64,000 bases of DNA from Candidatus Planktophila sp. (GTDB lineage Bacteria; Actinomycetota; Actinomycetes; Nanopelagicales; Nanopelagicaceae). The DNA lies in contig JBILBC010000001.1 of assembly GCA_044353885.1 (NCBI GenBank), positions 2,544 through 66,543 on the forward strand, written 5' to 3'. The first letter of the stretch is position 1, and the number at the start of each line of letters is the position of its first letter. The position numbers and the translations under genes were made by a program. Of the stretch, positions 9,918 through 64,000 are shown one piece after another. The notes beneath the pieces are model-generated. The model had not been told where the DNA came from and did not search any database. It was given only the letters and a program-made list of their open reading frames with translations.

Positions 9918-9959
9918 TCGACGAGCAGGCATCTCAATCTTTGTGGGAGACTAGGTCTT

Positions 9960-38427: not shown

Positions 38428-38428
38428 A

Positions 38429-42955: not shown

Positions 42956-44234
42956 ATACTCTAAATCTGAAAAACAGCTGTTAGCAGCAGAGGCAGTTAT
43001 TCCTTTAGGTTCGCAAACTTTTAGTAAGTCCAGAACTCAGTACCCAGTCGGAATTTCCCCCCTGTTTGCAAAAAAAGCAAAAGGTTCACGGATTCAAGAC
43101 CTCGATGGCAATTGGTATGTAGATCTAGTAAATAGTCTTGCTGCCATCACGATTGGATACGGGGATAGAGAGATAGCCAAAGCTGTTAGAGGGCAACTTT
43201 CCAATGGAATCATTTTTTCACTTCCAGGTACGCTGGAAGAAGAAGTTGCATCTTTGATTGTGGAACTTGTTCCATCTGCAGAGTCGGTTCGGTTTGGAAA
43301 GAATGGGACTGATGCGACATCCGCAGCCGTCAGGCTGTCACGTGCCTATACCGGCCGGGACTTAATTGCCGTCTGTGGTTATCACGGCTGGCAAGACTGG
43401 TACATCGGATCAACCTCACGCGATAAAGGCGTCCCAGATTTAACAAAATCTTTAACAAAAAGCTTCAAATTCAACGATATCTCCAGCCTGAAACAACTAA
43501 TTTCAGAATTTCCACAACAATTTGCTGCTGTTGTTATGGAACCGATGAATCTTAATTACCCCGCTGAAAATTTCTTAGGAGACGTACGAAGAATTTGTAA
43601 CGAAAACGGAATAGTGCTCGTTTTTGACGAAACAATTACTGGATTTAGATTTTCTAGAGGGGGCGCCCAAGAGCTATTTGGAGTTACACCCGACCTGTCT
43701 ACTTTTGGGAAAGGGTTAGCAAACGGCTATCCACTTTCCGCGATTGTAGGTAAGAAAGAAATTATGAAGGAGATGGAGGAAATTTTCTTTTCAGGCACTT
43801 TTGGTGGAGAGCTCCTTTCTCTTGCTGCGGCAAAGGTGGTGCTTGAGAGGCACAAGAGTCAAAATGTCTCATCTGAACTTGATTCCATTGGTAAAAACCT
43901 TAAAGAAAAGGTCGAAGAAATTATTCGGGAATGTGACCTTGAAAATGTTCTCGGCCTTTCAGGACATCCAAGCTGGGTATTCTTAAATTGGTCAGCAGTC
44001 GGAGACTATTCGGTTGAAGAAATAAAGACGTTCTTTATGCAAGAAATGTTCAAGCGTGGAGTCCTTATTCTAAATACCCACAACATCTCACTTGCATTTA
44101 GTAAAAAGGATTTAAAAGTTGTGCTAAAAGCTTATTCTGAAACCTTGCATGCTCTTTCGGAAGCCATTAATTTGCAGAATTTACGTGAAAGACTAGAGGT
44201 TAAGCCTTTGATACCTTTATTTAAGGTTCGGTAA
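42948..44234 (+). CDS. Class III PLP aminotransferase (glutamate-1-semialdehyde aminomutase-like)
   Basis: VRFGKNGTDAT, GYHGWQDW, VFDETITGFR, PLP Lys in STFGKGLANG, SGTFGG. Confidence 0.9.
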   Translation: MSRYSKSEKQLLAAEAVIPLGSQTFSKSRTQYPVGISPLFAKKAKGSRIQDLDGNWYVDLVNSLAAITIGYGDREIAKAVRGQLSNGIIFSLPGTLEEEVASLIVELVPSAESVRFGKNGTDATSAAVRLSRAYTGRDLIAVCGYHGWQDWYIGSTSRDKGVPDLTKSLTKSFKFNDISSLKQLISEFPQQFAAVVMEPMNLNYPAENFLGDVRRICNENGIVLVFDETITGFRFSRGGAQELFGVTPDLSTFGKGLANGYPLSAIVGKKEIMKEMEEIFFSGTFGGELLSLAAAKVVLERHKSQNVSSELDSIGKNLKEKVEEIIRECDLENVLGLSGHPSWVFLNWSAVGDYSVEEIKTFFMQEMFKRGVLILNTHNISLAFSKKDLKVVLKAYSETLHALSEAINLQNLRERLEVKPLIPLFKVR

Positions 44235-44261: not shown

Positions 44262-45230
44262 ATGACCCAAGAGACGTGGCTACTTACAGGCGGTGCTGGA
44301 TATATCGGCACACATATTGCCGATGAGTTCATCCGCGCAGGCAAGTCAGTTGTTATCTATGACTCGCTCTATCAGGGCCTTGAATCCCGCATCGTCTATC
44401 TACGTGCTAAGCACAAGGTAGAGATCCCATTTATCAAGGGCGATATCCGCGATTACAACGAACTTGAAAGCGTAATCCGCACCCACAAAATTGATGGCAT
44501 CGTCCACACCGCAGCCCTTAAGGCTGTCGGTGAATCAATGGAGAAGTCAGATGAGTATTTCCAAGTAAATTTAGAGGCAACAACAGAACTGATTGCCATT
44601 GCAAAGCGCAACAATGTAAAGAAATTTATCTTCTCATCAACCGCTGCTGTCTATGGCAGTCCAGATTCAATGGATCCTTGCAAAGAGGATGGACCAAAGG
44701 CTCCAATCTCTCCTTATGGGGATTCTAAGTACCAAGCAGAGTCGGCGGTTACGGCATTTATCAATACAGCCGGTAACCATGGAACATCACTGCGTTTCTT
44801 CAACGTTGTAGGAGCTGCTGCCCCAGAACTACTTGATAACTCAGTGGAGAACTTAGTTCCTATTGTTCTTGGCAAGCTCAATAAAGGTGAAGCACCAACA
44901 ATCTTCGGTACCGATTACCCAACACCTGATGGCACATGTGTCCGTGACTACGTTGATGTTCGCGATATCGCCCGAGCACATCTGGCTGTAGCAGATGCCA
45001 CAACAAAATTGCCTGAGACCATGAATATCGGCACAGGGCGTGGTGCATCAGTGCGAGAGATCATCAAGCTTGTATTGGATGCAACTAAGAAGAGCGATAC
45101 CAAGGTCATTGAGGTAGAGCGCCGTGCAGGAGATCCAGCATTCTTGTGTGCGGATGTAACCCTGGCAAAGAGCGCCATGGGCTTTGAATCTAAGTACTCA
45201 TTGGAAGCCAGCGTCAGAAGCCTCTTTTAG
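44262..45230 (+). CDS. galE: UDP-glucose 4-epimerase
   Basis: TGGAGYIGTH, ALKAVGES, SSTAAVYG, YGDSK, GTDYPTPDGTCVRDY, RRAGD. Confidence 0.92.
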   Translation: MTQETWLLTGGAGYIGTHIADEFIRAGKSVVIYDSLYQGLESRIVYLRAKHKVEIPFIKGDIRDYNELESVIRTHKIDGIVHTAALKAVGESMEKSDEYFQVNLEATTELIAIAKRNNVKKFIFSSTAAVYGSPDSMDPCKEDGPKAPISPYGDSKYQAESAVTAFINTAGNHGTSLRFFNVVGAAAPELLDNSVENLVPIVLGKLNKGEAPTIFGTDYPTPDGTCVRDYVDVRDIARAHLAVADATTKLPETMNIGTGRGASVREIIKLVLDATKKSDTKVIEVERRAGDPAFLCADVTLAKSAMGFESKYSLEASVRSLF

Positions 45231-45259: not shown

Positions 45260-45274
45260 TAGACTCAACCCATG
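45260..45274 (+). repeat. Right copy of the imperfect direct repeat (also the -10 element and ATG of MFS-tmk)
   Basis: TAGACTCAACCCATG, 13/15 identical to 37413-37427. Confidence 0.55.
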
Positions 45275-51814: not shown

Positions 51815-53055
51815 AAGTACATTTTCACACAGACTCTCCTTTCGTTGGCGGTTCTGAGAATATGCTGCTATTACTTCTAAATTCAGTCAAAGTTAGAAAC
51901 TATTGCCAACCGAGCCTTAGTTATCGTTATTCGCGTCGATATGAGGAAGGATTGCAAAGTAAGCTTGAGACTCCAGTAGATATTTTCAGAATTCGGGCAA
52001 TCGATCCAATGCGTTTCGTCTATTACTCGAGCCTCAATGATGTTTTTGCGTATAGGTTGATTCTTAGCGTAATTCGTAAGTTGATATTTTATCCAACTTT
52101 TATTTTTCAATGCATCAAATTGTTCTTCTTGTTTTTGAGAATCAAACCAGATATTCTGCACATCAACAGTGGAGGTTATCCCGCCGCCCTATCTACACGT
52201 GCAGCTGCTCTAGCGGGTAGAATCGCAGGGGTAAAAAATATAATTTATGTTGCGAATAACTTGGCGGTTCCATATGATTCAATTCAGCGATATATGGAAT
52301 ATCCCATAGATTTTCTAGTTCAAAAATCTGTGAAACTATTTGTTACGGGTTCTTCTATTGCGCTCCAAGAACTGAAGAGGGTTCTAAATAGATCTAAATC
52401 AATTTTTAAAGTTATCAACAATGGAATTAGTGTTAGTGAGCGTTTTCAGCATCCGGTAAGTCATCCCAGCGAATTCAAAAACGACTCGAGAGTGATAGTG
52501 GCTGTTATTGCAATTCTAGAACCCCGTAAAGGGCACCAGGTACTTTTAGAAAGTATTTATCTTTTATCCTCGTCCAATAAGATTGATGGTGAAAATTTCC
52601 TACTTGTGATAGAGGGAGAGGGTGACCTATCTGAAGAAATTGAGCAGAATATTGCAAGAATGAAGATTTCTCATCTGGTTAAAATGGTAGGAAAAGTTGA
52701 AAATATCTACGATTTTATTGTAAAGTCTGACATAGTGATATTGCCTTCGCTATATCAGGAAGATTTCCCAAACGTGATACTTGAAGCCATGGCATTGTCA
52801 AAACCAGTAATTGCCACAAGGGTAGGTGGAATACCCGAACAAGTGGTGGACGGGATCACAGGATATTTGGTGGCTCCTAACAATCCCTTAGGTCTCGCCG
52901 AAAGTATTCTTTCCCTGCTGAATAACCATGAACTACGAGTACAAATGGGTGTCAATGGCTATAGGAGATTTATTGATAATTTCACCGCAGAGCGAGCCAT
53001 TGAACGGTATCTTGAAGAGTACGATTGGCTTCTAAAGAGTCAGGATGCTATCTAG
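51811..53055 (+). CDS. GT4 glycosyltransferase
   Basis: GGSE, RKGHQVL, EDFPNVILEAM, ATRVGGIPE; ATG overlaps the upstream TGA. Confidence 0.9.
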   Translation: MKVHFHTDSPFVGGSENMLLLLLNSVKVRNYCQPSLSYRYSRRYEEGLQSKLETPVDIFRIRAIDPMRFVYYSSLNDVFAYRLILSVIRKLIFYPTFIFQCIKLFFLFLRIKPDILHINSGGYPAALSTRAAALAGRIAGVKNIIYVANNLAVPYDSIQRYMEYPIDFLVQKSVKLFVTGSSIALQELKRVLNRSKSIFKVINNGISVSERFQHPVSHPSEFKNDSRVIVAVIAILEPRKGHQVLLESIYLLSSSNKIDGENFLLVIEGEGDLSEEIEQNIARMKISHLVKMVGKVENIYDFIVKSDIVILPSLYQEDFPNVILEAMALSKPVIATRVGGIPEQVVDGITGYLVAPNNPLGLAESILSLLNNHELRVQMGVNGYRRFIDNFTAERAIERYLEEYDWLLKSQDAI

Positions 53056-54125
53056 TGAATTCAAGTTTCTCCCAGTTTGCAGGCCAAAAAGTTTTTATCA
53101 CTGGCCACACTGGTTTTAAAGGCACATGGCTTACTTTTATTCTGAAGGAGCTCGGAGCAGAAATCTGCGGTTATTCACTAAAGCCCGATCTAAGCAATAA
53201 GCACTTTAATGATCTTGGGCTGAAAGAGGAAATTCTGCACATCGAGGCAGATATTCGCGAGCAGAGACAGCTTGTCTCAGAGATGAAAGCTTTTCAGCCA
53301 ACTTATGTTTTTCATTTGGCAGCGCAAGCATTAGTAAGAAAATCTTATGTAGATCCAACTCTTACTTTTGAAACGAATGTATTGGGATCATTGAATTTAC
53401 TAGAAGCTGTCAGAGAAACGCAAAGTGTTAAATCTCTTGTTTATGTCACCTCCGATAAATGCTATGAGAACAAGGAGTGGGTTTATGGGTATAGAGAATC
53501 AGATGAATTAGGCGGATTAGATCCATATAGCGCCTCAAAATCTTCAGCCGAGATTCTATTCTCTAGTTTCACGCGATCTTTCTTGGAGACTCGAGAAAAT
53601 CTTGGCTTTGCTTCAGTCCGTGCGGGAAATGTGATCGGGGGCGGAGATTGGTCCGAAGATAGAATTATTCCAGACTGCGTTCGGGCAATTTCAGATAGCC
53701 AGCCCATCACACTCAGGAGTCCAAACTCAACACGACCTTGGCAGCATGTGCTTGAGCCGCTGTCAGGATATTTACTCCTTGCGCAGAAGTTGTATCAAGA
53801 ACCTCTTAAATGGAGAGGGTCTTGGAACTTTGGCCCTAATGCTTCGGATGTTTTAACGGTAAAGGAGGTTGCATTGTCAATGATTTCAGAGTTTGGAGGA
53901 GGAAGTATTGAAATCCAGAATCCTGGCACCGGCGAGCATGAGGCGGGATTTCTGAAACTTAACTGCGACAAAGCGCACGAAATTCTTAAGTGGTGGCCAA
54001 CCTGGAATTCAAGGAAAACTCTCTCAGAAACTGCCAATTGGTACAAAAGAGTAATGGCAGGAGAGGACGCACTCACTGTAACAAGAGATCAAGCTACGGA
54101 ATTCTTTGGAGGCTCAAGTGATTGA
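53055..54125 (+). CDS. rfbG: CDP-glucose 4,6-dehydratase
   Basis: ITGHTGFKGTWL, HLAAQALVRKSY, TSDKCYEN, DPYSASK, RAGNVIGGGDW, RPWQHVLEPL. Confidence 0.95.
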   Translation: MNSSFSQFAGQKVFITGHTGFKGTWLTFILKELGAEICGYSLKPDLSNKHFNDLGLKEEILHIEADIREQRQLVSEMKAFQPTYVFHLAAQALVRKSYVDPTLTFETNVLGSLNLLEAVRETQSVKSLVYVTSDKCYENKEWVYGYRESDELGGLDPYSASKSSAEILFSSFTRSFLETRENLGFASVRAGNVIGGGDWSEDRIIPDCVRAISDSQPITLRSPNSTRPWQHVLEPLSGYLLLAQKLYQEPLKWRGSWNFGPNASDVLTVKEVALSMISEFGGGSIEIQNPGTGEHEAGFLKLNCDKAHEILKWWPTWNSRKTLSETANWYKRVMAGEDALTVTRDQATEFFGGSSD

Positions 54126-54567
54126 TGGAGTAGTACTTACCCCTCTCAAGCAAATTTTCGACGAGAGGGGGAAGGTTATGCACATGCTTGATGTAAATTC
54201 TTCAACTTTTTCCAGTTTTGGAGAAATCTATTTCTCATGCACCTATCCGGGCGTTGTCAAAGCCTGGCATTTACACAAAGAAATGACACTCAACTATGCG
54301 GTTATTCAAGGAGAAATAAAGATTGTACTTTTTGATGATCGACCTACAAGCCCAACGCGAGGACAAGTAGAGGAGATATTTGTTTCACCAGAGAATTACA
54401 TGCTTGTCACAGTGCCTCCAAAAGTTTGGAATGGTTTTAAATGCGTAGGCTTAGAAACGGCGATTGTTGCGAACTGCGCAACAATCCCGCATGACCCTTC
54501 AGAGATTTCTCGGCTGGAGCCGACGGATTCCTCAATCCCGTATTCGTGGGATCTTAAGCATCGTTGA
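54106..54567 (+). CDS. RmlC-like cupin sugar-nucleotide epimerase
   Basis: DERG, VKAWHLH, VPPKVWNGF, HDP. Confidence 0.85.
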   Translation: MEAQVIDGVVLTPLKQIFDERGKVMHMLDVNSSTFSSFGEIYFSCTYPGVVKAWHLHKEMTLNYAVIQGEIKIVLFDDRPTSPTRGQVEEIFVSPENYMLVTVPPKVWNGFKCVGLETAIVANCATIPHDPSEISRLEPTDSSIPYSWDLKHR

Positions 54568-54588
54568 AATTAAGGGAAAGAGGCTAAC

Positions 54589-55356
54589 TTGAAAGTAGTT
54601 ATATTGGCAGGCGGGTATGGAACCAGGCTGGGTGAATACACAACGCTCATTCCCAAGCCCATGGTAAAAATTGGACATAAACCAATTATTTGGCACATAA
54701 TGGAGCATTACGCAGAGTATGGCCATAAAGAATTCTTCCTAGCCTTAGGTTACAAAGCCGAATACGTAAAAGAATACTTTCTAAACTATAGATCGTTAAA
54801 TTCTGATTTTTCAATAGATCTGCTTTCGGGGGATATCGCTACAACCAAAGAGCCAGCGGTTGACTGGAGAGTCAATCTAGTAGATACAGGGATTGACACC
54901 TTAACTGGAGGAAGAATAAAACGCTTAAGGGAGTATGTTGGAGAAGAAACATTTATGGTCACTTATGGAGACGGCTTGTCCGACATAAACCTTGACAGGT
55001 TGCTGGAATTTCATAGAAATCACGGAAAACTTGTAACAATTACCGCCGTACATCCCACAGCTCGATTTGGGGAACTCAATTTAGATGGAGACAGGGTGCT
55101 TACATTTCAGGAGAAACCGCAACTTCATGATGGCTGGATAAACGGCGGCTTCATGATTATTGAGCCTGAATTTTTGGATTTCATTGAAGGTGATTTAACT
55201 ATGCTAGAAAAGGAACCATTAGAGAGGGCTGCCTCTGTGGGAGAACTAATGGCATACCACCACCCTGGCTTCTGGCACTGTATGGATACCAAGCGCGATC
55301 ACGAGCTACTTGAAAGCATGTGGGAGAGCGGAGCCCCTTGGGCTGCTAGAACTTAA
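54589..55356 (+). CDS. rfbF: Glucose-1-phosphate cytidylyltransferase
   Basis: ILAGGYGTRL, PKPMVKIG, TYGDG, FQEKP, WINGGF, FWHCMDT. Confidence 0.95.
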   Translation: MKVVILAGGYGTRLGEYTTLIPKPMVKIGHKPIIWHIMEHYAEYGHKEFFLALGYKAEYVKEYFLNYRSLNSDFSIDLLSGDIATTKEPAVDWRVNLVDTGIDTLTGGRIKRLREYVGEETFMVTYGDGLSDINLDRLLEFHRNHGKLVTITAVHPTARFGELNLDGDRVLTFQEKPQLHDGWINGGFMIIEPEFLDFIEGDLTMLEKEPLERAASVGELMAYHHPGFWHCMDTKRDHELLESMWESGAPWAART

Positions 55357-56306
55357 TGAAAGTCCTTGTAACTGGCGCGGGCGGGTTTCTGGGCTCTCGA
55401 ATCATCAAAGCCCTAAGTTGCTTAAAGCATGAAGTTACTGGAGTAACAACAAAGGTTGAGTTAGGTAAAAAGTTCCAAGGGGACTTCGAACTTAAAATAA
55501 TTGATTGGGACAGTGCACAATCTCTACGTGACAGCTGCGTAGGTCAAGACGTTGTAATCCATGCAGCAGGTATGAATTTTATAGAATGTGTGGCAGATCC
55601 AAATCAGGCAAATAAATTCAATGGGGAAGCAACCCAAAATCTTATTGAGGCAGCAGTAGAAAGTAGGGTAGAGAGTTTTATTTACCTATCAACTGTTCAC
55701 GTATACGCCGACCCACTTACGGGAAAATTTCTTGAGAACTCCGCCACGACTGCTACACATGCATATGCAACATCGCACTTGCTTGGGGAGAAAGCAGTAT
55801 TGGAGAAAATAGGAAATAATGAAATAGCTGGAAAGATTCTACGTGTCGGAAACGCCTTCGGCACGCCAGTTATCCATAGTCAAGATTCCCCATGGAGCAA
55901 CCTTATTAACCAATGTTGTAAGACTTTAGTGGATACCAACATGATAGAGATTAAGAACAATCCCAATGTTCAAAGAGACTTTATTCCAGTTGGATACTTT
56001 CTGACTGAGCTCGATCATATACTAAATAAGAAAATGGATTCACCCTCAAAGATCATAAATCTCGTTTCTAGAAGTAGCCTTTCAATTTTCCAAGTAATAG
56101 AAATAATCATAAAAATATTTCGAAATTACTCCAAATTCGAAGATGAACCAACTTTGTTATTCAATCAATCAATTAGAAGTGCCAAGCATCTAGAAATAGA
56201 GAATTCTGATTCGACAATATTGAGTCCATTTCTGATTATCTACCTTGAAGACGAGATAAATTCCATTTTTAAATACTTGTCACGGAAGAAAATAAATGTC
56301 AGGTGA
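55356..56306 (+). CDS. NAD-dependent epimerase/reductase (extended SDR)
   Basis: VTGAGGFLG, HAAG, LSTVHVY, YATSH (YxxxK Lys replaced by His), QRDFI. Confidence 0.8.
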   Translation: MKVLVTGAGGFLGSRIIKALSCLKHEVTGVTTKVELGKKFQGDFELKIIDWDSAQSLRDSCVGQDVVIHAAGMNFIECVADPNQANKFNGEATQNLIEAAVESRVESFIYLSTVHVYADPLTGKFLENSATTATHAYATSHLLGEKAVLEKIGNNEIAGKILRVGNAFGTPVIHSQDSPWSNLINQCCKTLVDTNMIEIKNNPNVQRDFIPVGYFLTELDHILNKKMDSPSKIINLVSRSSLSIFQVIEIIIKIFRNYSKFEDEPTLLFNQSIRSAKHLEIENSDSTILSPFLIIYLEDEINSIFKYLSRKKINVR

Positions 56307-57183
56307 ATCAACCAAATTTTCGATAATTATGCCAACTTACAACCAGGCTGATTATATATTGCAATCAATCGCCACAGTGTTGAGTCAAGATTTTACGGAG
56401 TGGGAACTTATAGTAATTGATAACTCTTCAGACGATGGGACTGAATCCTTGCTTGCAGGGATTAATGATTCCAGAGTGAGAGTGATTAACTGTAACAATG
56501 GGGGAATTATTGCGCGATCCCGGAACTTAGGAATTGAAAGCGCATCAAACCCATGGATTGCATTTTTAGATTCAGATGACTTGTGGGATTCGAGAAAATT
56601 AAGTCACATGGCAAGAATAATCCAGAGGTTTAATCCAGATTTGATTTATCATCAGATGCGTTATGTCTCAGATGATATCTCAGGAAAGAAAGTTAAAACT
56701 CGTAAACTTAAGAGCAACGCTTTTGAAGATCTTTTAATTGCGGGAAACCCGATTGCAAACTCTTCAGTTGTGGTCCGTAAAAGTATTTTAAATCAAGTTG
56801 GATTAATGAGCGAGGAGAGAGAATTGGTAGGATGCGAAGACTATAACTCTTGGCTGAAGATTGCCAAATTGAAAGCAACTTTCTATTTCGCTAAACAAAC
56901 TCTAGGTGGATACAGGATTCATGAAAACAATTTTTCTACTTCTGCGCAGAAGGTTATTCATCTAGGTGCTACAAAAGAGTTCATTTTGGATCTCCCGATC
57001 AGAGTAAAGACTAAAATGAATAGCCACAACGCTTACTTACTAGCGAGACATTTTGCAAGTAACAGCAACTACGCGAAGGCAAAAGAAAACTATCTTCTCA
57101 CCATTAAGGGCGGAAGCATTTTGCTTAGGTTTAAAGCGACCCTACTATTAGTAATTTGCTTTTTTAGAAGCCATAGTGACTAG
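56296..57183 (+). CDS. GT2 glycosyltransferase
   Basis: [28 protein letters not shown]. Confidence 0.92.
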
Positions 57184-57884
57184 TGGTGAGTCTTAAACAA
57201 ATTGTACTTCAAGATGCAGTACAAAGCGCGGAATCCATCTTTCCACCCAATTTTTTTGCCCTCATCGTAAGTTCTTCCGTAATATGAAATCCCAACTTCA
57301 TAGACTCGTATATTCATGCGAGCAATTTTGGCTGTAACTTCAGGTTCAAAACCAAATCTATCTTCATGTATGTTGATTCTGCTTACGACGTCTCTACGAA
57401 AGACTTTATAGCAAGTCTCCATATCTGTAAGATCTAGATTTGTAAACACATTCGACAGGGTAGTCAAGACAGAGTTGCCTAGACGATGCCAGTAGTACAG
57501 GACTCTTCGTGGCCCCGTACTCAGAAAGCGAGAACCATAAACAACATCAGCCTTACCCTCCAAGATTGGCTGAATTAGCCTTGGATACTCTTGAGGGTCA
57601 TATTCTAAATCTGCATCTTGAATTAGAACAATGTCGCCAGTGGCAAGTGCTAAACCATCGCGAAGTGCGGCACCCTTTCCGAGGTTGCGTTCCTGCAAGT
57701 GCAATATAGATATTTGTTCACTCAGCTCACCTTGAAGTAATTCTCTTGTGCCATCAGTTGACCCATCGTCAACAACTATAACTTCCAACGACATTTCAAT
57801 TTTGGAAGCATGAACTCGAGCAAGTAGCTCCGAAATCGTATTGACTTCGTTAAAACAAGGAATTACAACGGACAATTTTTTCAT
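57180..57884 (-). CDS. GT2, polyprenol-phosphate glycosyltransferase (Dpm1/ArnC-like)
   Basis: [61 protein letters not shown]. Confidence 0.88.
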
Positions 57885-58813
57885 TGTGCAATCCTCATTT
57901 CAGAAATCGTGCGTACGAGGCCCTCTTCGATTCCAACTTTAGGCTCCCATTTTAACCAAGACTTTGCGAGCTGAATATCTGGCTTCCGACGGGAAGGGTC
58001 ATCTTCGGGGAGCGGCAAAAATTTGAGTTCAGACTTCGAATTTGTGAGAGTAATTATGAGATTGGCCAAATCAATCATGGATATCTCTGTGGGATTCCCT
58101 AGGTTTACAGGACCAAGTTCGCTCTTTTCTTTCAAAATGATTTGCATAAACCCAGAAATCAAGTCAGAAACATAGCAAAAACTTCGAGTCTGAGTACCTT
58201 CGCCGTAAAGTGTTAAAGCATCTCCGCGAAGTGCTTGAGAAATAAAGTTGCTGACTACGCGTCCATCATCCTTAGACATTCGGGATCCATACGTATTAAA
58301 TATTCTTACAATCGTAGTATTAACCTTGTATTGCTTCCGGAAATCTGAACAAAGTGTTTCAGCGGCACGTTTGCCTTCGTCGTAACAGCTTCGAGGACCA
58401 ATTGGATTAACGTTTCCCCAGTAGTCTTCTTTTTGCGGATGAGTAAGCGGCTCACCATAAATTTCACTTGTAGAAGCTTGAATAAATCGCGCATTGTTTG
58501 CCCTTGCAAGTTCCAAGGCATTAAAAGTTCCCAAGAAATTGGTTAGCAAAGTACCAACAGGATTTAGTTGATATCTAGGAGGAGAAGCCGGGCTCGCCAT
58601 ATTTACGATCACCTCACACTTTATGGAAAATCTCTCTTTCACGTCATGTTCAATAAAAGTAAAATTAGGTTGAGATGTCATTTTCTTTAAATTTTCCGTG
58701 CGACCGGTCGAGAGGTTGTCTACACAGATAACCGAGAAATTCGCATCCAAAAGGGACTCACATAAATGAGAACCCAAAAATCCGGCTCCTCCAAGCACTA
58801 AAACCGTTGTCAT
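57881..58813 (-). CDS. uxs: UDP-glucuronate decarboxylase (UDP-xylose synthase family)
   Basis: [68 protein letters not shown]. Confidence 0.9.
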
Positions 58814-58890
58814 GTCTTAATCCTATATCGCAACTTGGACAAAGCGTTGAATATGGTTGCGGATCCATTCTTCTCATGTATCTTTCAATC

Positions 58891-60318
58891 GTGACCAAGT
58901 TTCCTAATGTCTTAACTCAGCTTCGATTACCCCCTTACACACGGGTTGTGTATACACACCTTGCGTTGCTAATGATTGTTGTTTCTAATTTAATCCAATA
59001 TTTACTCAAGCCTGCCGGATTTAGACAGGGCGATTCTTGGGCATACGGGTTCTCTGGTGAGAGAGATTGGGGTTTGGTTTCATTTACAGGTCACGCTCTT
59101 CGAAAATGGCCGTTAGTACTAGTAAACACAATTTTAGGGAACGTCGAACTACAAGTTTTATTCCAAACCTTGTTTTCTTGTTGCGCTTGGATCTTTTTGG
59201 TTTGTGTGATTTCTAAGTTATATGGTTCAAATAATCTAGCCGTCTTGGCGACTGGAGTCTTAGGATCGATTAAGCAAATTGTAAGCTGGAACTCAATTCA
59301 ACTTTCAGAGTCATGGTCGATATCGAGCTTGATCATGGTTATTGCATTAAGTCTTTCTATTTCATACAAGCGATCTCGTACCAAAATTTTACTACTTCTA
59401 ATGTTTCTTCTCATTACCCTTAACACCAAACCTTCCACTCTACTGGCCCTAGTAGTGTTAATTCCACTTATTTTGCTAGGTATGGCCCTACTGAAACAAA
59501 CTACAAGGCTTCGCAAAAACGAGTCTTTAACATTGGCGATAATCGGAATAGTTGTGTATTCATGCTTTCTAAATGTCAATCAAGCTAACGAGAACCTCCA
59601 AAATGAGGGATCAGGTCAGTCCTATTCGGCTGCTCAAGCAGTAGCGGTTATTTCAAATATCAATCCAGAAGCCAAAAGAGTAATCAGCAAGCTATCCACG
59701 GTGGATGAAATCACCTGCCTTGATATAACTGCGCTCAAGTCTCCTATCGAAATCACTGAATTGATGAAGTTCAAATGCCAGACGTCAGAGAGCTGGCTTA
59801 CCGAGAATTTTGCGAAATGGTATCTCCGCTACCTGATTGAGAATCCCCAATACGTAATGAAGATATTTGCTACTTCCTTAAGCGCAGGCAATTCGCCTTT
59901 TTCCATGTACGCAGGCTCAATAAGTATTGTGCCTACTCCTGTAGAAGGATTGTTCTTCGGTTCCCGAAATTATGCTAATCGCCTGAATCAAGATTCAGCG
60001 CAGAATATTGATGTGGATAAAATTGAAATAACTTCACCACTCTTTGTCTGGATAATCGCAGGATTACTGCTCCTTACTTATTTAACATTTCGTACTCGTT
60101 TCATTAGATCGGATGGCCCAAGGGTTCCAGGGAGTACCTATGGTCTTTTGATCTGTCTTGGCCTTATCACCATTTTAATAAGCGGAGTGTTGATTCCAAA
60201 TGAATGGTTTAGGCAATCCATAGTCGGACAGATAGAAATTTTCGTAGGGACAATTCTTCTCTATGCCGAGTATTCGACAACCAATTCGCTGGATAACACT
60301 CGGACTAAAAATCAATGA
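58891..60318 (+). CDS. Polytopic membrane protein with a large extracytoplasmic loop (GT-C/polymerase-like, unassigned)
   Basis: About 9-11 TM segments, early loop RQGDSWAY, soluble loop ENLQNEG...; GTG 58891 fits a leaderless -10. The ORF-track start (58807) overlaps uxs. Confidence 0.6.
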   Translation: MTKFPNVLTQLRLPPYTRVVYTHLALLMIVVSNLIQYLLKPAGFRQGDSWAYGFSGERDWGLVSFTGHALRKWPLVLVNTILGNVELQVLFQTLFSCCAWIFLVCVISKLYGSNNLAVLATGVLGSIKQIVSWNSIQLSESWSISSLIMVIALSLSISYKRSRTKILLLLMFLLITLNTKPSTLLALVVLIPLILLGMALLKQTTRLRKNESLTLAIIGIVVYSCFLNVNQANENLQNEGSGQSYSAAQAVAVISNINPEAKRVISKLSTVDEITCLDITALKSPIEITELMKFKCQTSESWLTENFAKWYLRYLIENPQYVMKIFATSLSAGNSPFSMYAGSISIVPTPVEGLFFGSRNYANRLNQDSAQNIDVDKIEITSPLFVWIIAGLLLLTYLTFRTRFIRSDGPRVPGSTYGLLICLGLITILISGVLIPNEWFRQSIVGQIEIFVGTILLYAEYSTTNSLDNTRTKNQ

Positions 60319-60366
60319 AGCGCCTTACTATATTATTGGCAGCCATAAATTCTAGAAAGTATTTTG

Positions 60367-61242
60367 ATGCAAGGTAAGAGTCGCCAAAGAAAAGTGGTAA
60401 TCAGATTATATGGCGGATTAGGAAATCAGATTTTCCAATACCTATTCGGCATGCTTTTATCTTCTAAAGATTTGGCTGAAGTATATTTCGATAAAAACTG
60501 GTTAAATAATCAGCCTTCTCATTCCGGATCAGATTTGCGCAATTTTAAATTTACTGAAGAAGTTATGTTTGTTCGAGAGAGAGGTACTTTCGCAATCAAG
60601 TGCGATGAACTACTTACAAGACTAGCAAGAGTTATTAAGCCGCTAAGTAAAATTAGTAGAATCAAGTTTGAATGTTCGTTGGAAGAATTAAATTATGACT
60701 TAACCAAGAAATATTCAAGATTCCGTGGCTACTATCAAGAATTGAACTATCCAGAGAATTTAATTGGCGAATTAAGAAGTATGGACTGGGACCTTGACTG
60801 TTATTCAGAAAGTTTCACAAACATACTTGGCGATCTGCAGAGTAAAAAGTTCATCGCACTACATGTGAGAGGAGGAGATTATCTTTCTATTGGTTCAATT
60901 CACGAAAATCTAGGTACTGAATATTACGAAAAATCACTAAAGTACATAACAAAAGAATTGCCTGAAGCTTCAATTCTGATTTTTACCGACGATAGATTGC
61001 ACGCGCAAGAAGTCCTTCCAGCTAATGAAAAGTTTCAGTATGTCTCTGAGCTCAGTTTAAGCATTTCTGAGGAATTTCTATTGATGTCCAAAGCAAGCGC
61101 TCACATAATTGCCAATTCCACTTTTTCCTACTGGTCTGCGCAACTATCAAGGACCTCCTCGTTTTTTGTTTGCCCGCGAGCTTGGTACAGAGCCCCTGGA
61201 GGGGCTAGGCCAATCTATCCAATAAATTGGGTAGTTATTTGA
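60367..61242 (+). CDS. GT11 alpha-1,2-fucosyltransferase family protein
   Basis: LYGGLGNQIFQY, GYYQ, ALHVRGGDY, IFTDD, IIANSTFSYW. Confidence 0.92.
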   Translation: MQGKSRQRKVVIRLYGGLGNQIFQYLFGMLLSSKDLAEVYFDKNWLNNQPSHSGSDLRNFKFTEEVMFVRERGTFAIKCDELLTRLARVIKPLSKISRIKFECSLEELNYDLTKKYSRFRGYYQELNYPENLIGELRSMDWDLDCYSESFTNILGDLQSKKFIALHVRGGDYLSIGSIHENLGTEYYEKSLKYITKELPEASILIFTDDRLHAQEVLPANEKFQYVSELSLSISEEFLLMSKASAHIIANSTFSYWSAQLSRTSSFFVCPRAWYRAPGGARPIYPINWVVI

Positions 61243-62209
61243 AAGTGCCCAGGCGGTAGTTTTTCCGCAGTTGTTGAAATTTTCGCATTTCAATACCTGT
61301 ACTAAACCACTCGTTTCGATATTGTGAAAGAATTTGTAGGGAAATCTCTGCGCATTTGATTTTATTTCGAGTGTTACTAAATCGATACAATGTGATTAAG
61401 TCTCGCAAGAGTGAGAGAAACCTTTCAGGAGTGCCACTCGAAACACTGTAGATGGAATGTAATCTTGTTGTTTCCTCTTGAATTTTGTCCAGATCCAAGT
61501 TCTGCGAGATTTGAGATTGAAATCTCCTTAAGTTTCGAAGCATCATCTCTTGTGATACCGCACTTATTCCACTTGGGTTAAGCGTGTAATTCAAAAGAGG
61601 TAATGGCAAACTTGCAATTTCAGAATAGCTTGATACCTTCACCCAAAGTGCGAGATCTTCCGTCGGGTAGTGTTCTTCTTGATAGCCTCCCAGCTCTTGA
61701 ATTACAGATTTACGAAAAATCACACTGGGGTGTGGTGTTCTAGAAGATGTTATCAAGGATAGTTTGGTTAAATTCGGCAAAATGGCAGTACGCACGTCTC
61801 CCAAGAACTGTGAGTTCATACCCCTAATTGAATAATCTGAAAATGCGGCTGCAACATTCTGGTTAGTTGACATAAAGTTACTCAACTTTTCAATTCGATT
61901 GGGTGCATAGAAATCATCTATATCTGCACGTGCAACCAGCTCGAAATCACAACATTCGAGACCGTAATTTAAAGTATTGACCAAACCAAAGTGTTGTCTT
62001 GTTCTAAAAACTATTCTGGAATCCCGCTCCGCCGACTTTCTAACCAAGGCGGCTGTATTGTCTGAGGAGCCGTCATCAACAACAACGATCTGATCTATTC
62101 CTCTGGCACTTGAAACTATCGAAGCCAGTCCTTCTAGGATGTGCTTTTCCGCATTGAAGACAGGAACTAAAATCGAGCAAGGTACTGGCTGTGAATTTTC
62201 AAAGGTCAT
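61235..62209 (-). CDS. GT2 glycosyltransferase
   Basis: LVPVFN, VDDGSSDNT, ARADIDD, HPSV, EDLALW. ATG 62209 overlaps the GT6 stop. Confidence 0.9.
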   Translation of the reverse strand: MTFENSQPVPCSILVPVFNAEKHILEGLASIVSSARGIDQIVVVDDGSSDNTAALVRKSAERDSRIVFRTRQHFGLVNTLNYGLECCDFELVARADIDDFYAPNRIEKLSNFMSTNQNVAAAFSDYSIRGMNSQFLGDVRTAILPNLTKLSLITSSRTPHPSVIFRKSVIQELGGYQEEHYPTEDLALWVKVSSYSEIASLPLPLLNYTLNPSGISAVSQEMMLRNLRRFQSQISQNLDLDKIQEETTRLHSIYSVSSGTPERFLSLLRDLITLYRFSNTRNKIKCAEISLQILSQYRNEWFSTGIEMRKFQQLRKNYRLGTFK

Positions 62210-63008
62210 TCCGGGATTCCTTCTTATCAACAGCAATCACAATTGGTGATAACTTTTTAAGTTGTGGATAAGTTGGATCAAAGCAAAGAGCAGGTGGTAC
62301 CAAAGTCACCCGGCCGAAGGCATTAAAGTGATTCAAATGACTCTCATCATGATATTTTGCAATTATTCCTTTATCCAAATCATGATTAGTTGCTCTGCTC
62401 AACTGGCTACACATATTGAAGATTGCGTCACTTTTTCCAAACCAGATACCGCCACAAACGTACGCTTTCCTGAAAGCCCTAGGGACGTAAGCAGTTGAAT
62501 CCCTATTTGTTTCCCATGTGCCTATTGCGCCGAACCTGATTGACAAAACTAGGTCTCTAATTGCATACCTGGGATTTAGCACGTAAAAATGAAGTCTATC
62601 GATACCAGCCTCTCGGTAGAAGCCAGGGTGACGTACAAGCACAAGGGGACTGTCATTTAGAAGCGTCATTATTGAAGATACAAAATCTTTAGAAGTAATC
62701 AACATGTCAGCATCGAGATAAACAAAACTAGAGGTTGAAATATCCTGAAGCGAGTCCAAAATATGTTGATATCGCATTAGTGTGGGATAGGGCCATTCAG
62801 AATGTTGAATTTGTCGGACAATGAGATTCTCTCCCAAAGTGTTCGAAATACGTTCAGGGATTTCGTTCGGCCGATCCGTCAGTAGAAGCCATTTGACGCT
62901 TGGATTTGTTGAACCAGTCGAGAAGTAAGAATCAATGAGATTTACCCAATAGTCAAGGTATTTGCTTGTCGCAATCGAAAATATGGTCAAGCCGCTTAGT
63001 TTATGCAT
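62199..63008 (-). CDS. GT6 family glycosyltransferase (ABO / alpha-1,3-Gal(NAc) transferase family)
   Basis: IATSKY, WPYPTLMRY, YLDADM, HPGFY, E...STAY, YVCGGIWFG, IIAKYHDESHLN, AVDK: all hallmark GT6 blocks in the expected order. Confidence 0.88.
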   Translation of the reverse strand: MHKLSGLTIFSIATSKYLDYWVNLIDSYFSTGSTNPSVKWLLLTDRPNEIPERISNTLGENLIVRQIQHSEWPYPTLMRYQHILDSLQDISTSSFVYLDADMLITSKDFVSSIMTLLNDSPLVLVRHPGFYREAGIDRLHFYVLNPRYAIRDLVLSIRFGAIGTWETNRDSTAYVPRAFRKAYVCGGIWFGKSDAIFNMCSQLSRATNHDLDKGIIAKYHDESHLNHFNAFGRVTLVPPALCFDPTYPQLKKLSPIVIAVDKKESRNDL

Positions 63009-63083
63009 TCACATGAATTCCCTTAAGAAGCTTGCGGTGTGGATAGAATATACACTCCAACCTCTCGGGAAAAGGTAATAGCG

Positions 63084-64000
63084 GTGGCTTTTCGAACTGA
63101 AGATTTGCGGCGCTGCATTAGATTGTTACCGAAACGCGACCGGAGAAAGATCAAGATAGTTATTGCTGCTCAGTTAGCACTCGCTGGTTTAGATCTTCTT
63201 GGCGTCGCTTCGGTTGGTATTTTGGGCGCACTTGCGGTGAGAGGTATTCAATCAGCTGCACCCGGCGATCGAGTTTCAAGCATTCTTCAAATTCTCAATA
63301 TTCAGAATTTGAATTTTCAGCAGCAAGTTATGATTTTGGGCCTGATTGCTGCTGGAGTATTTGTTGTGAGAACAATCGCTTCTGTTTACATAACAAAAAG
63401 GACTTTTGTATTCCTTAGCTACAGAAGCGCTGAGATCTCTTCTGAGCAGATATCAAAAATACTATCTAACCCGAGGTTAATTCTGGAAGAGCTTAACCCC
63501 CAAGAGATTATTTATGCTGCGACATCGGGTGTATCCGCTTTAGTCTTAGGTGTCATAGGTTCTGGGGTGGTATTTATTTCCGATGCAGCCCTATTGATTG
63601 TGATTGCAGTCGGATTATTAGTTGTGGATACATCAATTGCGATAAGCACAATTCTCATTTTTGGAGTTATAGGATATTTTGTATTTAAGCTTCTAAGCAA
63701 CAAGGCACGGCACTTAGGTTCAAGGAACACGCAATTAAACGTTGAAAGCAATAATCTAATTGTAGAACTTTTGGGCGCGTATAGAGAAAACCAAGTGAAA
63801 AGCCGGCAGAAATTCTATTCACTCAAAGTAGGGAAAAAAAGATTTGAACTTGCGGAAGTTATGGCAGAGGTGCAATTTCTTCCAAATATTAGTAAATATG
63901 TAATTGAATCAACTTTGATTATTGGCGCTTTATTTGTGAGCGCAATTCAATTTAGGGCACAGGATGCCTCACACGCTGTAGCTGCATTATCTGTTTTTCT
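63084..64000 (+). CDS. ABC transporter, fused permease/ATPase type, PglK-like glycan flippase candidate (truncated by window end)
   Basis: Not in the ORF track; hand translation from GTG 63084: MAFRTEDLRRCIRLLPKRDRRK...LDLLGVASV...LLGAYRE..V...FLPNISKYVIE, open to the window end. Only the TM domain is visible. Confidence 0.75.
   Translation, partial: MAFRTEDLRRCIRLLPKRDRRKIKIVIAAQLALAGLDLLGVASVGILGALAVRGIQSAAPGDRVSSILQILNIQNLNFQQQVMILGLIAAGVFVVRTIASVYITKRTFVFLSYRSAEISSEQISKILSNPRLILEELNPQEIIYAATSGVSALVLGVIGSGVVFISDAALLIVIAVGLLVVDTSIAISTILIFGVIGYFVFKLLSNKARHLGSRNTQLNVESNNLIVELLGAYRENQVKSRQKFYSLKVGKKRFELAEVMAEVQFLPNISKYVIESTLIIGALFVSAIQFRAQDASHAVAALSVF

What the first reader, a model, noticed from the sequence alone, without database searches (positions are those of the whole stretch)
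60367..64000. Histo-blood-group-like glycan cassette (GT11 + GT2 + GT6 + ABC flippase) in an apparently free-living streamlined actinobacterium
Seen: four contiguous genes encoding GT11, GT2, GT6 and a PglK-like ABC TM domain. Established: GT11 enzymes make the H antigen (Fuc-alpha1,2-Gal) and GT6 enzymes extend it to A or B antigens; the same pairing gives E. coli O86 its B-active O-antigen. GT6 genes are rare in bacteria and mostly known from host-associated taxa. Inference: this organism may display an A/B/H-like epitope on a lipid-linked, ABC-exported glycan, for phage or protist evasion rather than vertebrate mimicry.
Basis: partly seen in the sequence, partly recalled or inferred. Interest (0 to 1): 0.85.

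Follow-up and report, generated by a model that had tools for sequence, protein, structure and literature searches.

The report
Blood-group-type glycan cassette, freshwater actinobacterium
A tiny free-living lake bacterium (acI/Nanopelagicaceae) carries an intact four-gene module with the enzyme types that make human H and A/B blood-group sugars, plus a PglK-like exporter. The find is solid but not exceptional, because the same enzyme pair sits side by side in many environmental bacteria and cyanophages.

Summary
HMMs assign GT11 (60364-61242 +), GT2 (61235-62236 -) and GT6 (62199-63008 -). The last gene (63039 onward, +) is a fused TMD-NBD ABC exporter, cut by the contig end.

The GT6 model (pLDDT 95) matches BoGT6a and human GTA/GTB. 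It keeps the catalytic Glu, the DXD metal motif and the residues that admit a 2'-fucosylated acceptor. It also has a clade-specific insertion of about 25 aa.

The genome encodes gmd and fcl, so GDP-fucose can be made.

Linkage is strong:
- All 7 GT6-positive genomes among 301 Nanopelagicaceae also have GT11 (p = 3e-7), and in 6 of them it lies within 2.5 kb.
- The four-gene module recurs, shuffled and only 25-50% identical, in four other genomes of the family.
- 50 of 80 GT6 loci from many phyla have GT11 within 10 kb.

A profile of the exporter's membrane domain hits only PglK in the PDB, weakly. The four cavity arginines of PglK align with conserved basic residues.

My reading is a lipid-linked oligosaccharide capped by an A-like (possibly B-like) fucosylated branch. 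It would be flipped by the ABC and displayed on the wall as a strain-variable epitope.

The premise that this is rare and host-associated is outdated: DXD-type GT6 in aquatic microbes and phages has been known since 2010-2012. This is a new member of a known kind, of moderate interest.

The parts
60364..61242 (+). GT11 alpha-1,2-fucosyltransferase-like gene (292 aa)
   Evidence: PF01531, 61.4 bits. The family motifs GGLGNQ, HVRGGDY, FTDD and NSTFSYW are conserved; the second Arg of the usual HxRRGDY is Gly in this clade. It is the only GT11 in the genome.
61235..62236 (-). GT2 inverting glycosyltransferase ('GT2b', 333 aa), co-transcribed downstream of GT6
   Evidence: PF00535, 79 bits. NCBIfam gives only generic hits. 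An orthologue travels with GT6, GT11 and the ABC in G059, G119, G016 and G071. Its role as the beta-Gal(NAc) transferase that builds the acceptor is inferred by analogy.
62199..63008 (-). GT6 retaining alpha-1,3-Gal/GalNAc-transferase-like gene (269 aa), DXD type
   Evidence: PF03414, 55.8 bits. Best PDB match is BoGT6a, E = 1.4e-11. AF2 model pLDDT 95.2, TM 0.72-0.83 to BoGT6a and about 0.75 to GTA/GTB. Key residues: D99-A-D101, H127, G129, T164, Y183, C185-G186-G187, Y219, E222, A259, K262. Insertion of about 25 aa at residues 134-160.
63039..64000 (+). Fused TMD-NBD ABC exporter, PglK/Wzk-like; runs past the window and is cut by the contig end
   Evidence: 523 aa are readable, with about six hydrophobic segments, Walker A at residue 416 and LSGG at 521. 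PF00005. PglK aligns over residues 85-523, E = 1.3e-27. A profile of the TMD alone hits only PglK, E = 0.0015. R111, K286, R326 and R333 align with PglK R86, R260, R302 and R309.
57180..60318 (.). Neighbouring accessory set: Dpm1-like GT2 (57180-57884 -), UXS-like decarboxylase (57881-58813 -) and a polytopic membrane protein (58807-60318 +)
   Evidence: Pfam. Weak WsfD hit for the membrane protein (18.8 bits, cut-off 80). Syntenic with the cassette in contigs whose GT6 is 84% and 60% identical, but not in more distant relatives. Possibly decorates the same glycan outside the membrane (inference).
44262..45230 (+). GalE-like UDP-hexose 4-epimerase, a candidate source of UDP-Gal or UDP-GalNAc
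   Evidence: PF01370, 178 bits, and PF16363. Substrate range not tested.

Best explanation
The four genes form a portable module for an ABH-type glycan cap.

Proposed pathway (inferred unless marked):
1. On the cytoplasmic face, an oligosaccharide is built on a polyprenyl-pyrophosphate carrier. It would be primed by one of the genome's phosphoglycosyl transferases encoded elsewhere.
2. The GT2 adds the beta-linked Gal (or GalNAc) acceptor.
3. The GT11 adds L-fucose alpha-1,2 from GDP-fucose, which the genome's own gmd/fcl can make.
4. The metal-dependent DXD-type GT6 adds an alpha-1,3 GalNAc. This A-like donor is predicted from the small Cys-Gly-Gly at the positions equivalent to GTA Leu266-Gly267-Gly268; Gal (B-like) is not excluded.
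5. The PglK/Wzk-like ABC half-transporter flips the finished lipid-linked glycan.
6. A Wzy_C-type membrane protein, or another ligase, transfers it to a wall polymer or protein.

The result would be a strain-variable surface epitope in the known replacement island GI1 of Planktophila/Nanopelagicaceae.

Shown here: gene families, fold, catalytic motifs, presence of the GDP-fucose genes, and conserved linkage. Inferred: sugar identities and linkages, order of steps, carrier, final acceptor and ecological role.
For: - Family and fold assignments.
- The GT6 keeps the catalytic Glu (E222 in HDESHLN), the DXD motif and the C-terminal Lys.
- It also has His, Gly and Ala at the three positions that separate enzymes taking fucosylated acceptors (GTA, GTB, BoGT6a) from alpha3GT (PMC3516806 section 6).
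- The only characterised DXD-type bacterial GT6, PaGT6, is metal-dependent. It transfers GalNAc to H trisaccharide or 2'-FL and is inactive on LacNAc.
- gmd (56% identity to E. coli) and fcl (48.5%) are present in G000. In G071 they lie directly beside the cassette.
- All 7 of 7 GT6-positive Nanopelagicaceae genomes have GT11, against 31 of 294 others (Fisher p = 3e-7). In 6 of the 7 it lies within 2.5 kb.
- GT11+GT2+GT6+ABC are conserved, with shuffled order and 25-50% identity, in G059, G119, G016 and G071.
- 50 of 80 GT6 loci across phyla have GT11 within 10 kb, 46 of them within 2.1 kb. One locus holds a single open frame matching both the GT11 and GT6 profiles.
- The ABC membrane-domain profile hits only PglK in the PDB, and four basic residues align with its functional arginines.
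- A Wzy_C protein lies 4-9 kb from the cassette in four relatives. In G000 it is on contig C20 with the same neighbours as in G016.
- Neither GT has a signal or membrane segment, so both should act in the cytoplasm.
- Short lake metatranscriptome contigs match GT6 and the GT11/GT2 junction (weak evidence).
Against: - There is no biochemical or glycan-structure evidence.
- The insertion of about 25 aa replaces the acceptor loop of BoGT6a and could change acceptor specificity.
- The Trp that stacks on the acceptor (BoGT6a W189) is Tyr here.
- The GT11 has HVRGGDY instead of HxRRGDY.
- The island also encodes a CDP-6-deoxyhexose pathway whose transferase is not assigned.
- The TMD match to PglK is weak (E = 0.0015). 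The TMD alone finds nothing by phmmer and has no Pfam ABC_membrane hit.
- No priming transferase or ligase lies in the window, and the contig ends inside the ABC gene.
- One GT6-positive genome (G019) has its only GT11 42 kb away.
Confidence: 0.58

Rival explanations
1. Both enzymes decorate the same glycan, but the product is not an A/B/H branch. The GT6 would put an alpha-linked Gal or GalNAc on a non-fucosylated or otherwise different acceptor, and the GT11 would fucosylate another residue.
For: The clade-specific insertion of about 25 aa sits where BoGT6a has its acceptor loop. The acceptor-stacking Trp is Tyr. 30 of 80 GT6 loci show no GT11 within the DNA fetched, up to 10 kb each side and less where the contig is short. 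Vertebrate GT6 members such as alpha3GT act on non-fucosylated acceptors.
Against: His127, Gly129 and Ala259 match the enzymes that take fucosylated acceptors, not alpha3GT. GT6-GT11 linkage is very tight in this family. Every bacterial GT6 characterised so far requires Fuc-alpha1,2-Gal.
Confidence: 0.2
2. The GT11 homologue transfers a different 6-deoxyhexose, for example the product of the island's CDP-glucose pathway or another GDP-sugar. The glycan would then carry no L-fucose.
For: HVRGGDY replaces the canonical HxRRGDY. rfbF, rfbG, an RmlC-like epimerase and reductases lie 5-7 kb upstream with no dedicated transferase assigned, and they are syntenic with the cassette in close relatives.
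Against: gmd and fcl are present, and this is the only GT11 in the genome. G071 has the same HVRGGDY variant with gmd/fcl directly adjacent. Other substitutions at that position (I, L, M) occur in GT11s paired with GT6 in gut Firmicutes. The CDP pathway is absent from the more distant cassette-bearing relatives.
Confidence: 0.07
3. The ABC protein is not a flippase for this lipid-linked glycan. It would be a general exporter, or a flippase for another envelope precursor, that merely lies in the island.
For: The similarity to PglK is carried mostly by the ATPase domain. The genome has a paralogue in a second glycan locus on C61. Some GT6-GT11 loci in other phyla have no such ABC.
Against: An orthologue scoring over 300 bits lies within 5 kb of GT6 in five Actinomycetota loci (L004, L005, L006, L008, L009) and in L012, which is labelled Bacteroidota. 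It also stays with the three GTs through gene-order shuffling. PglK is the only TMD hit in the PDB, and its four functional arginines align with conserved basic residues. No Wzx-type flippase was detected in the island.
Confidence: 0.1
4. The cassette is vertebrate-host mimicry acquired from, or used in, a host-associated lifestyle.
For: The best-studied bacterial GT6-GT11 pairs are in gut or pathogenic bacteria.
Against: The organism is a streamlined planktonic Nanopelagicaceae found in lake metagenomes. Its GT6 belongs to the environmental DXD clade, not the NXN clade of host-associated bacteria. Its closest homologues are all environmental.
Confidence: 0.02

Closest known systems
PaGT6 of Parachlamydia acanthamoebae and the cyanophage P-SSM2 / marine-metagenome GT6 group (the DXD prokaryotic clade; PMC3516806, PMC3961637)
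   Same: A single catalytic domain with no C-terminal membrane-binding domain. The DXD motif is retained, which implies metal dependence. Catalytic Glu and C-terminal Lys are conserved. GT11 is often adjacent.
   Different: Only about 25-30% identical. The window's clade has an insertion of about 25 aa after HPGFY and a YVCGGxW(F/M)G donor loop instead of GGFxGG. The host is a monoderm actinobacterium.
BoGT6a of Bacteroides ovatus (PDB 4AYL, 4AYJ, 4CJ8), a blood-group-A synthase
   Same: It is the best sequence and fold match (E = 1.4e-11; TM 0.72-0.83). It shares the acceptor-contact residues H122, G124, T134, Y153 and E192, and a small residue at position A7.
   Different: BoGT6a has NXN and is metal-independent, whereas the window protein has DAD. 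BoGT6a lacks the insertion, and its W189 is Tyr here.
E. coli O86 O-antigen genes: WbnI (GT6, alpha-1,3-Gal, B-like) with WbwK (GT11) and a GT2 beta-1,3-Gal transferase (PMC4202792; the GT2 role is from my own knowledge)
   Same: The same three GT families are combined to give Gal/GalNAc-alpha1,3-(Fuc-alpha1,2)-Gal-beta on a lipid-linked unit.
   Different: O86 uses the Wzx/Wzy route and ligation to lipid A-core (my own knowledge). Here an ABC half-transporter accompanies the GTs and the organism has no outer membrane.
Helicobacter pylori Wzk pathway: WecA, cytoplasmic GTs including FutC (GT11), the PglK homologue Wzk, and WaaL (PMC2841628)
   Same: A fucosylated histo-blood-group-type glycan is completed on Und-PP in the cytoplasm. 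It is flipped by a PglK-type ABC and transferred by a Wzy_C-family ligase. This is the closest analogue for the system as a whole.
   Different: The acceptor in Helicobacter is lipid A-core; here it is unknown. The Helicobacter genes are scattered, whereas here they form a compact mobile module. Assigning the ABC to the PglK/Wzk group rests on a weak TMD match.
Replacement genomic island GI1 of Planktophila (PMC12817590)
   Same: It lies near the chromosome origin, is rich in glycosyltransferases, has strain-specific content and is thought to diversify phage and grazer recognition sites. The cassette lies next to topA-tmk-holB, at 39-53 kb in three complete relatives and about 90 kb from the end of the record in a fourth.
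   Different: The main text of that paper names neither GT6/GT11 nor fucose. The specific cassette has not been described there.

Membership tests
CAZy GT6 (Pfam PF03414) | Profile score above the curated threshold | tested here: met
   55.8 bits against a cut-off of 25. All 120 listed homologues carry PF03414.
CAZy GT6 | GT-A fold superposable on solved GT6 enzymes | tested here: met
   AF2 pLDDT 95.2. Foldseek top hits are BoGT6a (TM 0.72-0.83), then GTA/GTB at about 0.75.
CAZy GT6 | Catalytic Glu (GTA E303, BoGT6a E192) and C-terminal Lys (alpha3GT K359, BoGT6a K231) | tested here: met
   E222 in the invariant HDESHLN motif, and the invariant K262.
GT6, metal-dependent DXD group (versus the bacterial NXN group) | Asp-X-Asp at the junction of the subdomains | tested here: met
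   D99-A-D101 aligns with N95-A-N97 of BoGT6a and is invariant in the 39-sequence alignment. Metal dependence itself cannot be tested here.
GT6 enzymes that take 2'-fucosylated acceptors (GTA, GTB, BoGT6a, PaGT6) | His at A1, a small residue at A2 and a small residue at A7 (alpha3GT has Gln, Trp, Trp) | tested here: met
   H127, G129 and A259 by alignment to BoGT6a H122, G124 and I228. The insertion next to A1/A2 is a caveat.
GT6 enzymes that take 2'-fucosylated acceptors | Measured alpha-1,3 transfer to Fuc-alpha1,2-Gal | not testable with these tools
   Needs an enzyme assay.
NCBIfam NF041524 (Gltr_6 subfamily) | Score above the curated cut-off of 250 bits | tested here: not met
   100.6 bits. 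The protein lies outside that narrowly trained subfamily, although it is inside GT6.
CAZy GT11 (Pfam PF01531), alpha-1,2-fucosyltransferases | Profile score above threshold and the family motifs | tested here: met
   61.4 bits against 23.9. GGLGNQ, H-x-R-x-G-D-Y, FTDD and NSTFSYW are present. The second Arg of HxRRGDY is Gly.
CAZy GT11 | GDP-L-fucose is available in the cell | tested here: met
   gmd and fcl at C31:23106-25000 (Pfam). manC was not detected by tblastn with E. coli CpsB, so the source of GDP-mannose is unresolved in this 90%-complete genome.
PglK/Wzk-type lipid-linked-oligosaccharide flippase | Half-transporter with an N-terminal six-helix TMD fused to one NBD | tested here: met
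   About six hydrophobic segments, then Walker A and LSGG. Orthologues are 607-621 aa.
PglK/Wzk-type lipid-linked-oligosaccharide flippase | The membrane domain is specifically related to PglK | tested here: inconclusive
   The TMD profile hits only PglK in the PDB, but at E = 0.0015 and 20.7 bits. A single-sequence TMD search finds nothing. There is no PF00664 hit.
PglK/Wzk-type lipid-linked-oligosaccharide flippase | Four cavity arginines (R86, R260, R302, R309) that probably bind the pyrophosphate | tested here: met
   They align with R111, K286, R326 and R333. The last three positions are invariant in six orthologues and the first is always K or R. This rests on a weak alignment.
Wzx/Wzy-dependent O-antigen unit (E. 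coli O86 type) | Wzx flippase and Wzy polymerase in the locus | tested here: not met
   No Wzx-type Pfam family was found on any ORF of at least 140 aa between 37.4 and 64.6 kb. A single Wzy_C protein lies on another contig.

The most novel reading that the evidence does not exclude
The most abundant freshwater bacterioplankton may carry a mobile four-gene ABH cassette coupled to a PglK-type flippase and a Wzy_C transferase. That would be an en-bloc glycosylation route in a monoderm, putting blood-group-like caps on a wall polymer or protein.

The population would be polymorphic for A-like and B-like alleles. At the positions equivalent to GTA 266-268 the family shows CGG or AGG in four genomes, CGA in two, and HGA in a genome of the same genus. 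Among 120 homologues the counts are 103, 9 and 4, with 6 switches by parsimony.

On this reading, phage- or grazer-driven frequency-dependent selection maintains the polymorphism. This would be a microbial parallel to the human ABO polymorphism.
Probability: 0.2. Interest if true: 0.7.

Novelty: new member of a known kind. Interest (0 to 1): 0.4.

Why it matters
If the prediction holds, histo-blood-group-type determinants are ordinary currency in microbe-phage and microbe-grazer recognition in open water, not a speciality of vertebrate mimicry. That bears on where the vertebrate GT6 family came from, because the DXD prokaryotic clade has been proposed as its ancestor.

It would also give a concrete, testable content to the "glycan island" of acI Actinobacteria. 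That island has so far been described only as rich in glycosyltransferases.

Practical points:
- Cultured Planktophila strains and their first phages now exist, so the link between epitope and phage adsorption can be tested.
- The enzymes are small, soluble candidates for chemo-enzymatic synthesis of A/B/H glycans.

The step beyond existing knowledge is modest. The enzyme pair, its linkage and its occurrence in aquatic metagenomes and cyanophages are already known.

Tried and rejected
1. Looking for the missing C-terminus of the ABC on other contigs. The match at the start of C5 is an unrelated tandem-NBD ATPase. The ABC on C61 overlaps residues 148-523 and is therefore a paralogue. No contig end overlaps the end of C10.
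2. Joining C10 to C61 (a second glycan locus with a Bac_transf primer, a Wzz-type kinase and WecG). I rejected this because none of the C61 genes lie near the cassette in relatives.
3. Single-sequence search of the membrane domain against the PDB found no hit. A six-sequence profile was needed.
4. Pfam ABC_membrane was not detected on the window protein.
I replaced it with local HMMs built from 120 homologues each.
6. The HVRGGDY variant as a sign of a non-fucose donor. I considered this but it is not supported, because G071 has the same variant beside gmd/fcl.
7. Supplementary CAZy tables of the Planktophila paper are not held.
8. Repeated Gly/Ala switching at the donor site. Parsimony needs 6 changes, but well-supported branches force only 1, so multiple origins are suggested and not shown.
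9. Expression. Only four short metatranscriptome contigs match, which is weak evidence and could include DNA carry-over.

Full report
**What is there.** The last 3.6 kb of the window holds four intact, tightly packed genes:
- GT11 at 60364-61242 (+)
- GT2 at 61235-62236 (-)
- GT6 at 62199-63008 (-)
- an ABC transporter from 63039 (+)

Pfam places the first three above the curated thresholds: PF01531 at 61.4 bits, PF00535 at 79 bits and PF03414 at 55.8 bits. The window ends inside the ABC gene. Reading to the end of the contig, 609 nt further, shows about six hydrophobic segments followed by an ATPase domain with Walker A and LSGG. It is therefore a fused TMD-NBD half-transporter, still lacking about 85-100 residues compared with orthologues of 607-621 aa. 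The genes form three transcription units, not one operon. The stretch has 39-41% GC against 48% for the genome.

**The organism.** The assembly is 1.30 Mb in 119 contigs and about 90% complete. The cassette itself is found nearly complete in more than 20 lake-water metagenomes. "Free-living streamlined freshwater actinobacterium" is therefore correct.

**The GT6.** The best solved relatives are BoGT6a (E = 1.4e-11) and the human A and B transferases. An AlphaFold model built on 39 homologues has pLDDT 95.2. Its top fold matches are BoGT6a (TM 0.72-0.83) and GTA/GTB at about 0.75.

The alignment to BoGT6a gives these equivalences:
- D99-A-D101 where BoGT6a has N95-A-N97
- H127-P-G129-F-Y, equal to H122-P-G124-F-Y
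- T164 = T134, and Y183 = Y153
- C185-G186-G187 = A155-G156-G157, which correspond to Leu266-Gly267-Gly268 of GTA
- Y219 = W189
- E222 = the catalytic E192
- A259 = I228 (position A7), and K262 = K231

According to Thiyagarajan et al. (PMC3516806), His at A1, Gly or Ser at A2 and a small residue at A7 distinguish the enzymes that accept 2'-fucosylated galactose from alpha3GT, which has Gln, Trp and Trp. The window protein has the fucose-tolerant set. The small residue at the 266-equivalent position and Gly at the 268-equivalent position suggest UDP-GalNAc (A-like). This is an inference by homology.

Two features differ from all characterised enzymes. An insertion of about 25 residues (134-160) is modelled as two helices. 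It sits where BoGT6a has its short acceptor loop. The donor loop reads YVCGGIWFG instead of GGFxGG. The insertion is clade-specific: the spacing from HPG to HDESHLN is 93-95 residues in the window's clade against 65-69 in most others.

**What the literature already says.** GT6 has been divided into three groups:
1. single-domain DXD enzymes of cyanophage P-SSM2, marine metagenomes and Parachlamydia (PaGT6)
2. vertebrate enzymes
3. bacterial NXN enzymes with a C-terminal membrane-binding domain

PaGT6 needs Mn2+ or Mg2+. It transfers GalNAc to H trisaccharide or 2'-FL and is inactive on LacNAc. The window protein belongs to group 1. In 2014 all but one of the bacterial GT6 then known came from Gram-negative species, so an actinobacterial set is an addition, not a new kind.

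**How common it is.** A degenerate-pattern scan of one genome per species found 345 GT6-encoding stretches in 185,579 species. That is rare, but the taxa are diverse. They include Nanopelagicales, Microbacteriaceae, Opitutae, Verrucomicrobia, Chitinophaga, Pedobacter, Moorena, Planctomycetes, Chlamydiae and Dependentiae, as well as gut Lachnospiraceae, Akkermansia and Francisella. About half of the 80 best loci are DXD type and about half NXN. The metagenome protein collection holds at least 173 clusters related to the window protein, and DXD is invariant in the 39 that I aligned. Seventy phage records, nearly all cyanophages, encode a GT6, and in several the adjacent gene is annotated GT11. 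Earlier notes of this scan list 29 GT6+GT11 findings in at least 24 genomes. I treated these as leads and repeated the test myself.

**Linkage of GT6 and GT11.** Among 301 genomes of the window's family, 7 have GT6 and 38 have GT11. All 7 GT6 genomes have GT11 (Fisher one-sided p = 3e-7). In 6 of the 7 the two genes are within 2.5 kb. The exception is G019, whose only GT11 is 42 kb away. The GT6 proteins of these genomes are only 27-42% identical to the window's, so this is not one recent inheritance.

Across phyla, my local HMM scan found GT11 within 10 kb of GT6 in 50 of 80 loci. In 46 of these it lies within 2.1 kb, in 24 within 100 bp, and in L061 one open frame (stop to stop) matches both profiles. 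The top GT11 and GT6 metagenome hits also sit on contigs of identical length down to about 40% identity.

**The GT11 and its donor.** The protein keeps the family motifs GGLGNQ, H-x-R-x-G-D-Y, FTDD and NSTFSYW. The second Arg of the usual HxRRGDY is Gly throughout its clade. G000 encodes gmd (56% identical to E. coli Gmd) and fcl (48.5%) side by side on contig C31, in a housekeeping neighbourhood (asd, ask, recR, dnaX). This is the only GT11 in the genome. In G071, whose GT11 has the same HVRGGDY variant, gmd and an fcl fragment lie directly next to the cassette. That argues against a non-fucose donor.

**The four genes are a module.** Orthologues of GT11, the GT2, GT6 and the ABC lie together in four other Nanopelagicaceae genomes. 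The gene order differs and the identities are only 25-50%:
- G059: GT2-GT6-GT11-ABC
- G119: GT6-GT11-GT2-ABC
- G016: GT11-GT6-GT2-GT2-ABC
- G071: GT11-GT2-GT6-GT2-ABC

An ABC orthologue scoring over 300 bits lies within 5 kb of GT6 in five Actinomycetota loci, and in L012, which is labelled Bacteroidota. In close relatives (GT6 84% and 60% identical) a longer block is syntenic: GT4, the CDP-hexose genes, GT2, Dpm1-like GT2/uxs, the membrane protein, GT11, GT2, GT6 and ABC. In the three complete genomes the cassette lies 39-53 kb from the start of the chromosome, and in a fourth about 90 kb before its end. In the window it lies beside topA-tmk-holB. This matches the replacement island GI1 of Planktophila, which is described as rich in glycosyltransferases and linked to cell-surface variation. 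The main text of that paper mentions neither fucose nor GT6/GT11.

**The ABC.** Against the PDB the full protein hits many ABC exporters through its ATPase domain. PglK/WlaB gives the longest alignment, over residues 85-523 (E = 1.3e-27). The membrane domain alone finds nothing. A profile of six orthologous membrane domains hits only PglK among all solved structures, weakly (E = 0.0015). In that alignment the four arginines of the PglK cavity, thought to bind the pyrophosphate of the lipid-linked oligosaccharide (R86, R260, R302, R309; PMC5395944), fall on R111, K286, R326 and R333. The last three are invariant in the six orthologues and the first is always K or R. "PglK-like" is therefore a reasonable reading but a weakly supported one.

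**What may follow export.** No Wzx-type flippase or priming transferase was found in the island. Elsewhere the genome has one Bac_transf enzyme and three MraY/WecA-family enzymes. A Wzy_C-family membrane protein lies 4-9 kb from the cassette in G016, G119, G059 and L003. In G000 the single Wzy_C gene is on contig C20, with the same UGDH and epimerase neighbours as in G016.

The closest whole-system analogue is the Helicobacter pylori route. There a fucosylated Lewis-type glycan is finished on Und-PP, flipped by the PglK homologue Wzk and ligated by WaaL (PMC2841628). Here the acceptor cannot be lipid A-core and is unknown.

**Donor-site variation.** Within the family the 266-268 equivalents read:
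- CGG in G000, G059 and G016
- AGG in G054
- CGA in G071 and G019
- HGA in G119, of the same genus

Among 120 homologues the counts are CGG 103, CGA 9, HGA 4 and QAA 1. A tree needs 6 changes by parsimony, but well-supported branches force only one. His plus Ala resembles the Gal-using alpha3GT, and small plus Gly resembles the GalNAc-using enzymes. A mixture of A-like and B-like alleles is therefore possible but unproven.

**Expression.** Two lake metatranscriptomes contain short contigs (151-248 nt, 1-2 mismatches) on GT6 and on the GT11/GT2 junction. This is weak evidence.

**Verdict.** The biosynthetic reading is well supported for a purely computational case: an H-like fucosylation extended by GT6 on a lipid-linked, ABC-exported glycan. 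I put it at about 0.58, and the main rival is a non-ABH product of the same enzymes. The claim of surprise does not hold, because the pair is widespread in environmental bacteria and cyanophages and the DXD clade is in the literature.

What is new here is the lineage (acI Actinobacteria, a monoderm), the compact conserved four-gene module with a PglK-like exporter, and an insertion-bearing GT6 subclade. I class it as a new member of a known kind, with interest 0.4.

Noticed in passing
window 37444-44234: An operon with a PseB-like dehydratase, an RmlD-like reductase, a NeuB-family synthase, GT4, an aldo-keto reductase, a CTP_transf_3 cytidylyltransferase and a class-III aminotransferase. It is a nonulosonic-acid-type pathway with an unusual enzyme set, inserted between topA and tmk.
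   Followed up: partly
window 53025-56306: A CDP-glucose pathway (rfbF, rfbG, an RmlC-like epimerase and an SDR reductase) without the 3-deoxygenation genes. It probably makes a CDP-6-deoxyhexose. It is syntenic with the cassette in close relatives.
   Followed up: partly
window 57180-60318: A UXS-like decarboxylase and a Dpm1-like GT2 lie divergent from a 503-aa polytopic protein with a weak WsfD hit (18.8 bits, cut-off 80). This may be a polyprenyl-phosphate-sugar branch added outside the membrane.
   Followed up: partly
window 45272-47410: A 712-aa ORF whose N-terminal two-thirds is rich in hydrophobic, membrane-like segments and whose C-terminal part reads like a thymidylate kinase. It sits between the two halves of the glycan island.
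   Followed up: no
contig ends: G000 C10, and the contigs: Three of the four assemblies examined end within or 100-156 nt after the ABC gene. The fourth, the 31.9-kb contig, ends one gene further on. This suggests a hypervariable or repeated island boundary there.
   Followed up: no
L061:8147-10819: One open frame (stop to stop) in an Alphaproteobacteria MAG matches both the GT11 and the GT6 profiles, so it is an apparent GT11-GT6 fusion. L065 and L072 also have very long frames at their GT11 matches.
   Followed up: no
L009:8555-10292: A Nanopelagicales MAG has two divergent GT6 genes back to back (8555-9364 on - and 9429-10292 on +), next to one GT11.
   Followed up: no
G000 contig C61 (L101:391-12041): A second glycan locus with a Wzz/BY-kinase, an LMW phosphatase, a Bac_transf priming enzyme, an AsnB-like amidotransferase, GT2, WecG/TagA, two GT4s and a paralogue of the cassette's ABC (about 35% identical), also cut by a contig end.
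   Followed up: partly
L012 (record labelled Bacteroidota MAG): Its ABC scores 491 bits against the window's, as high as the best actinobacterial orthologue (L004, 498 bits). GT11, a GT2 and GT6 lie within about 1 kb of it. This is either a mis-binned actinobacterial contig or a recent transfer.
   Followed up: no
L099:14225-15835 (G071): Next to the cassette's ABC and gmd lie an apparently truncated fcl-like ORF (151 aa) and fragments of a second ABC copy. This suggests decay or rearrangement at the island edge.
   Followed up: no
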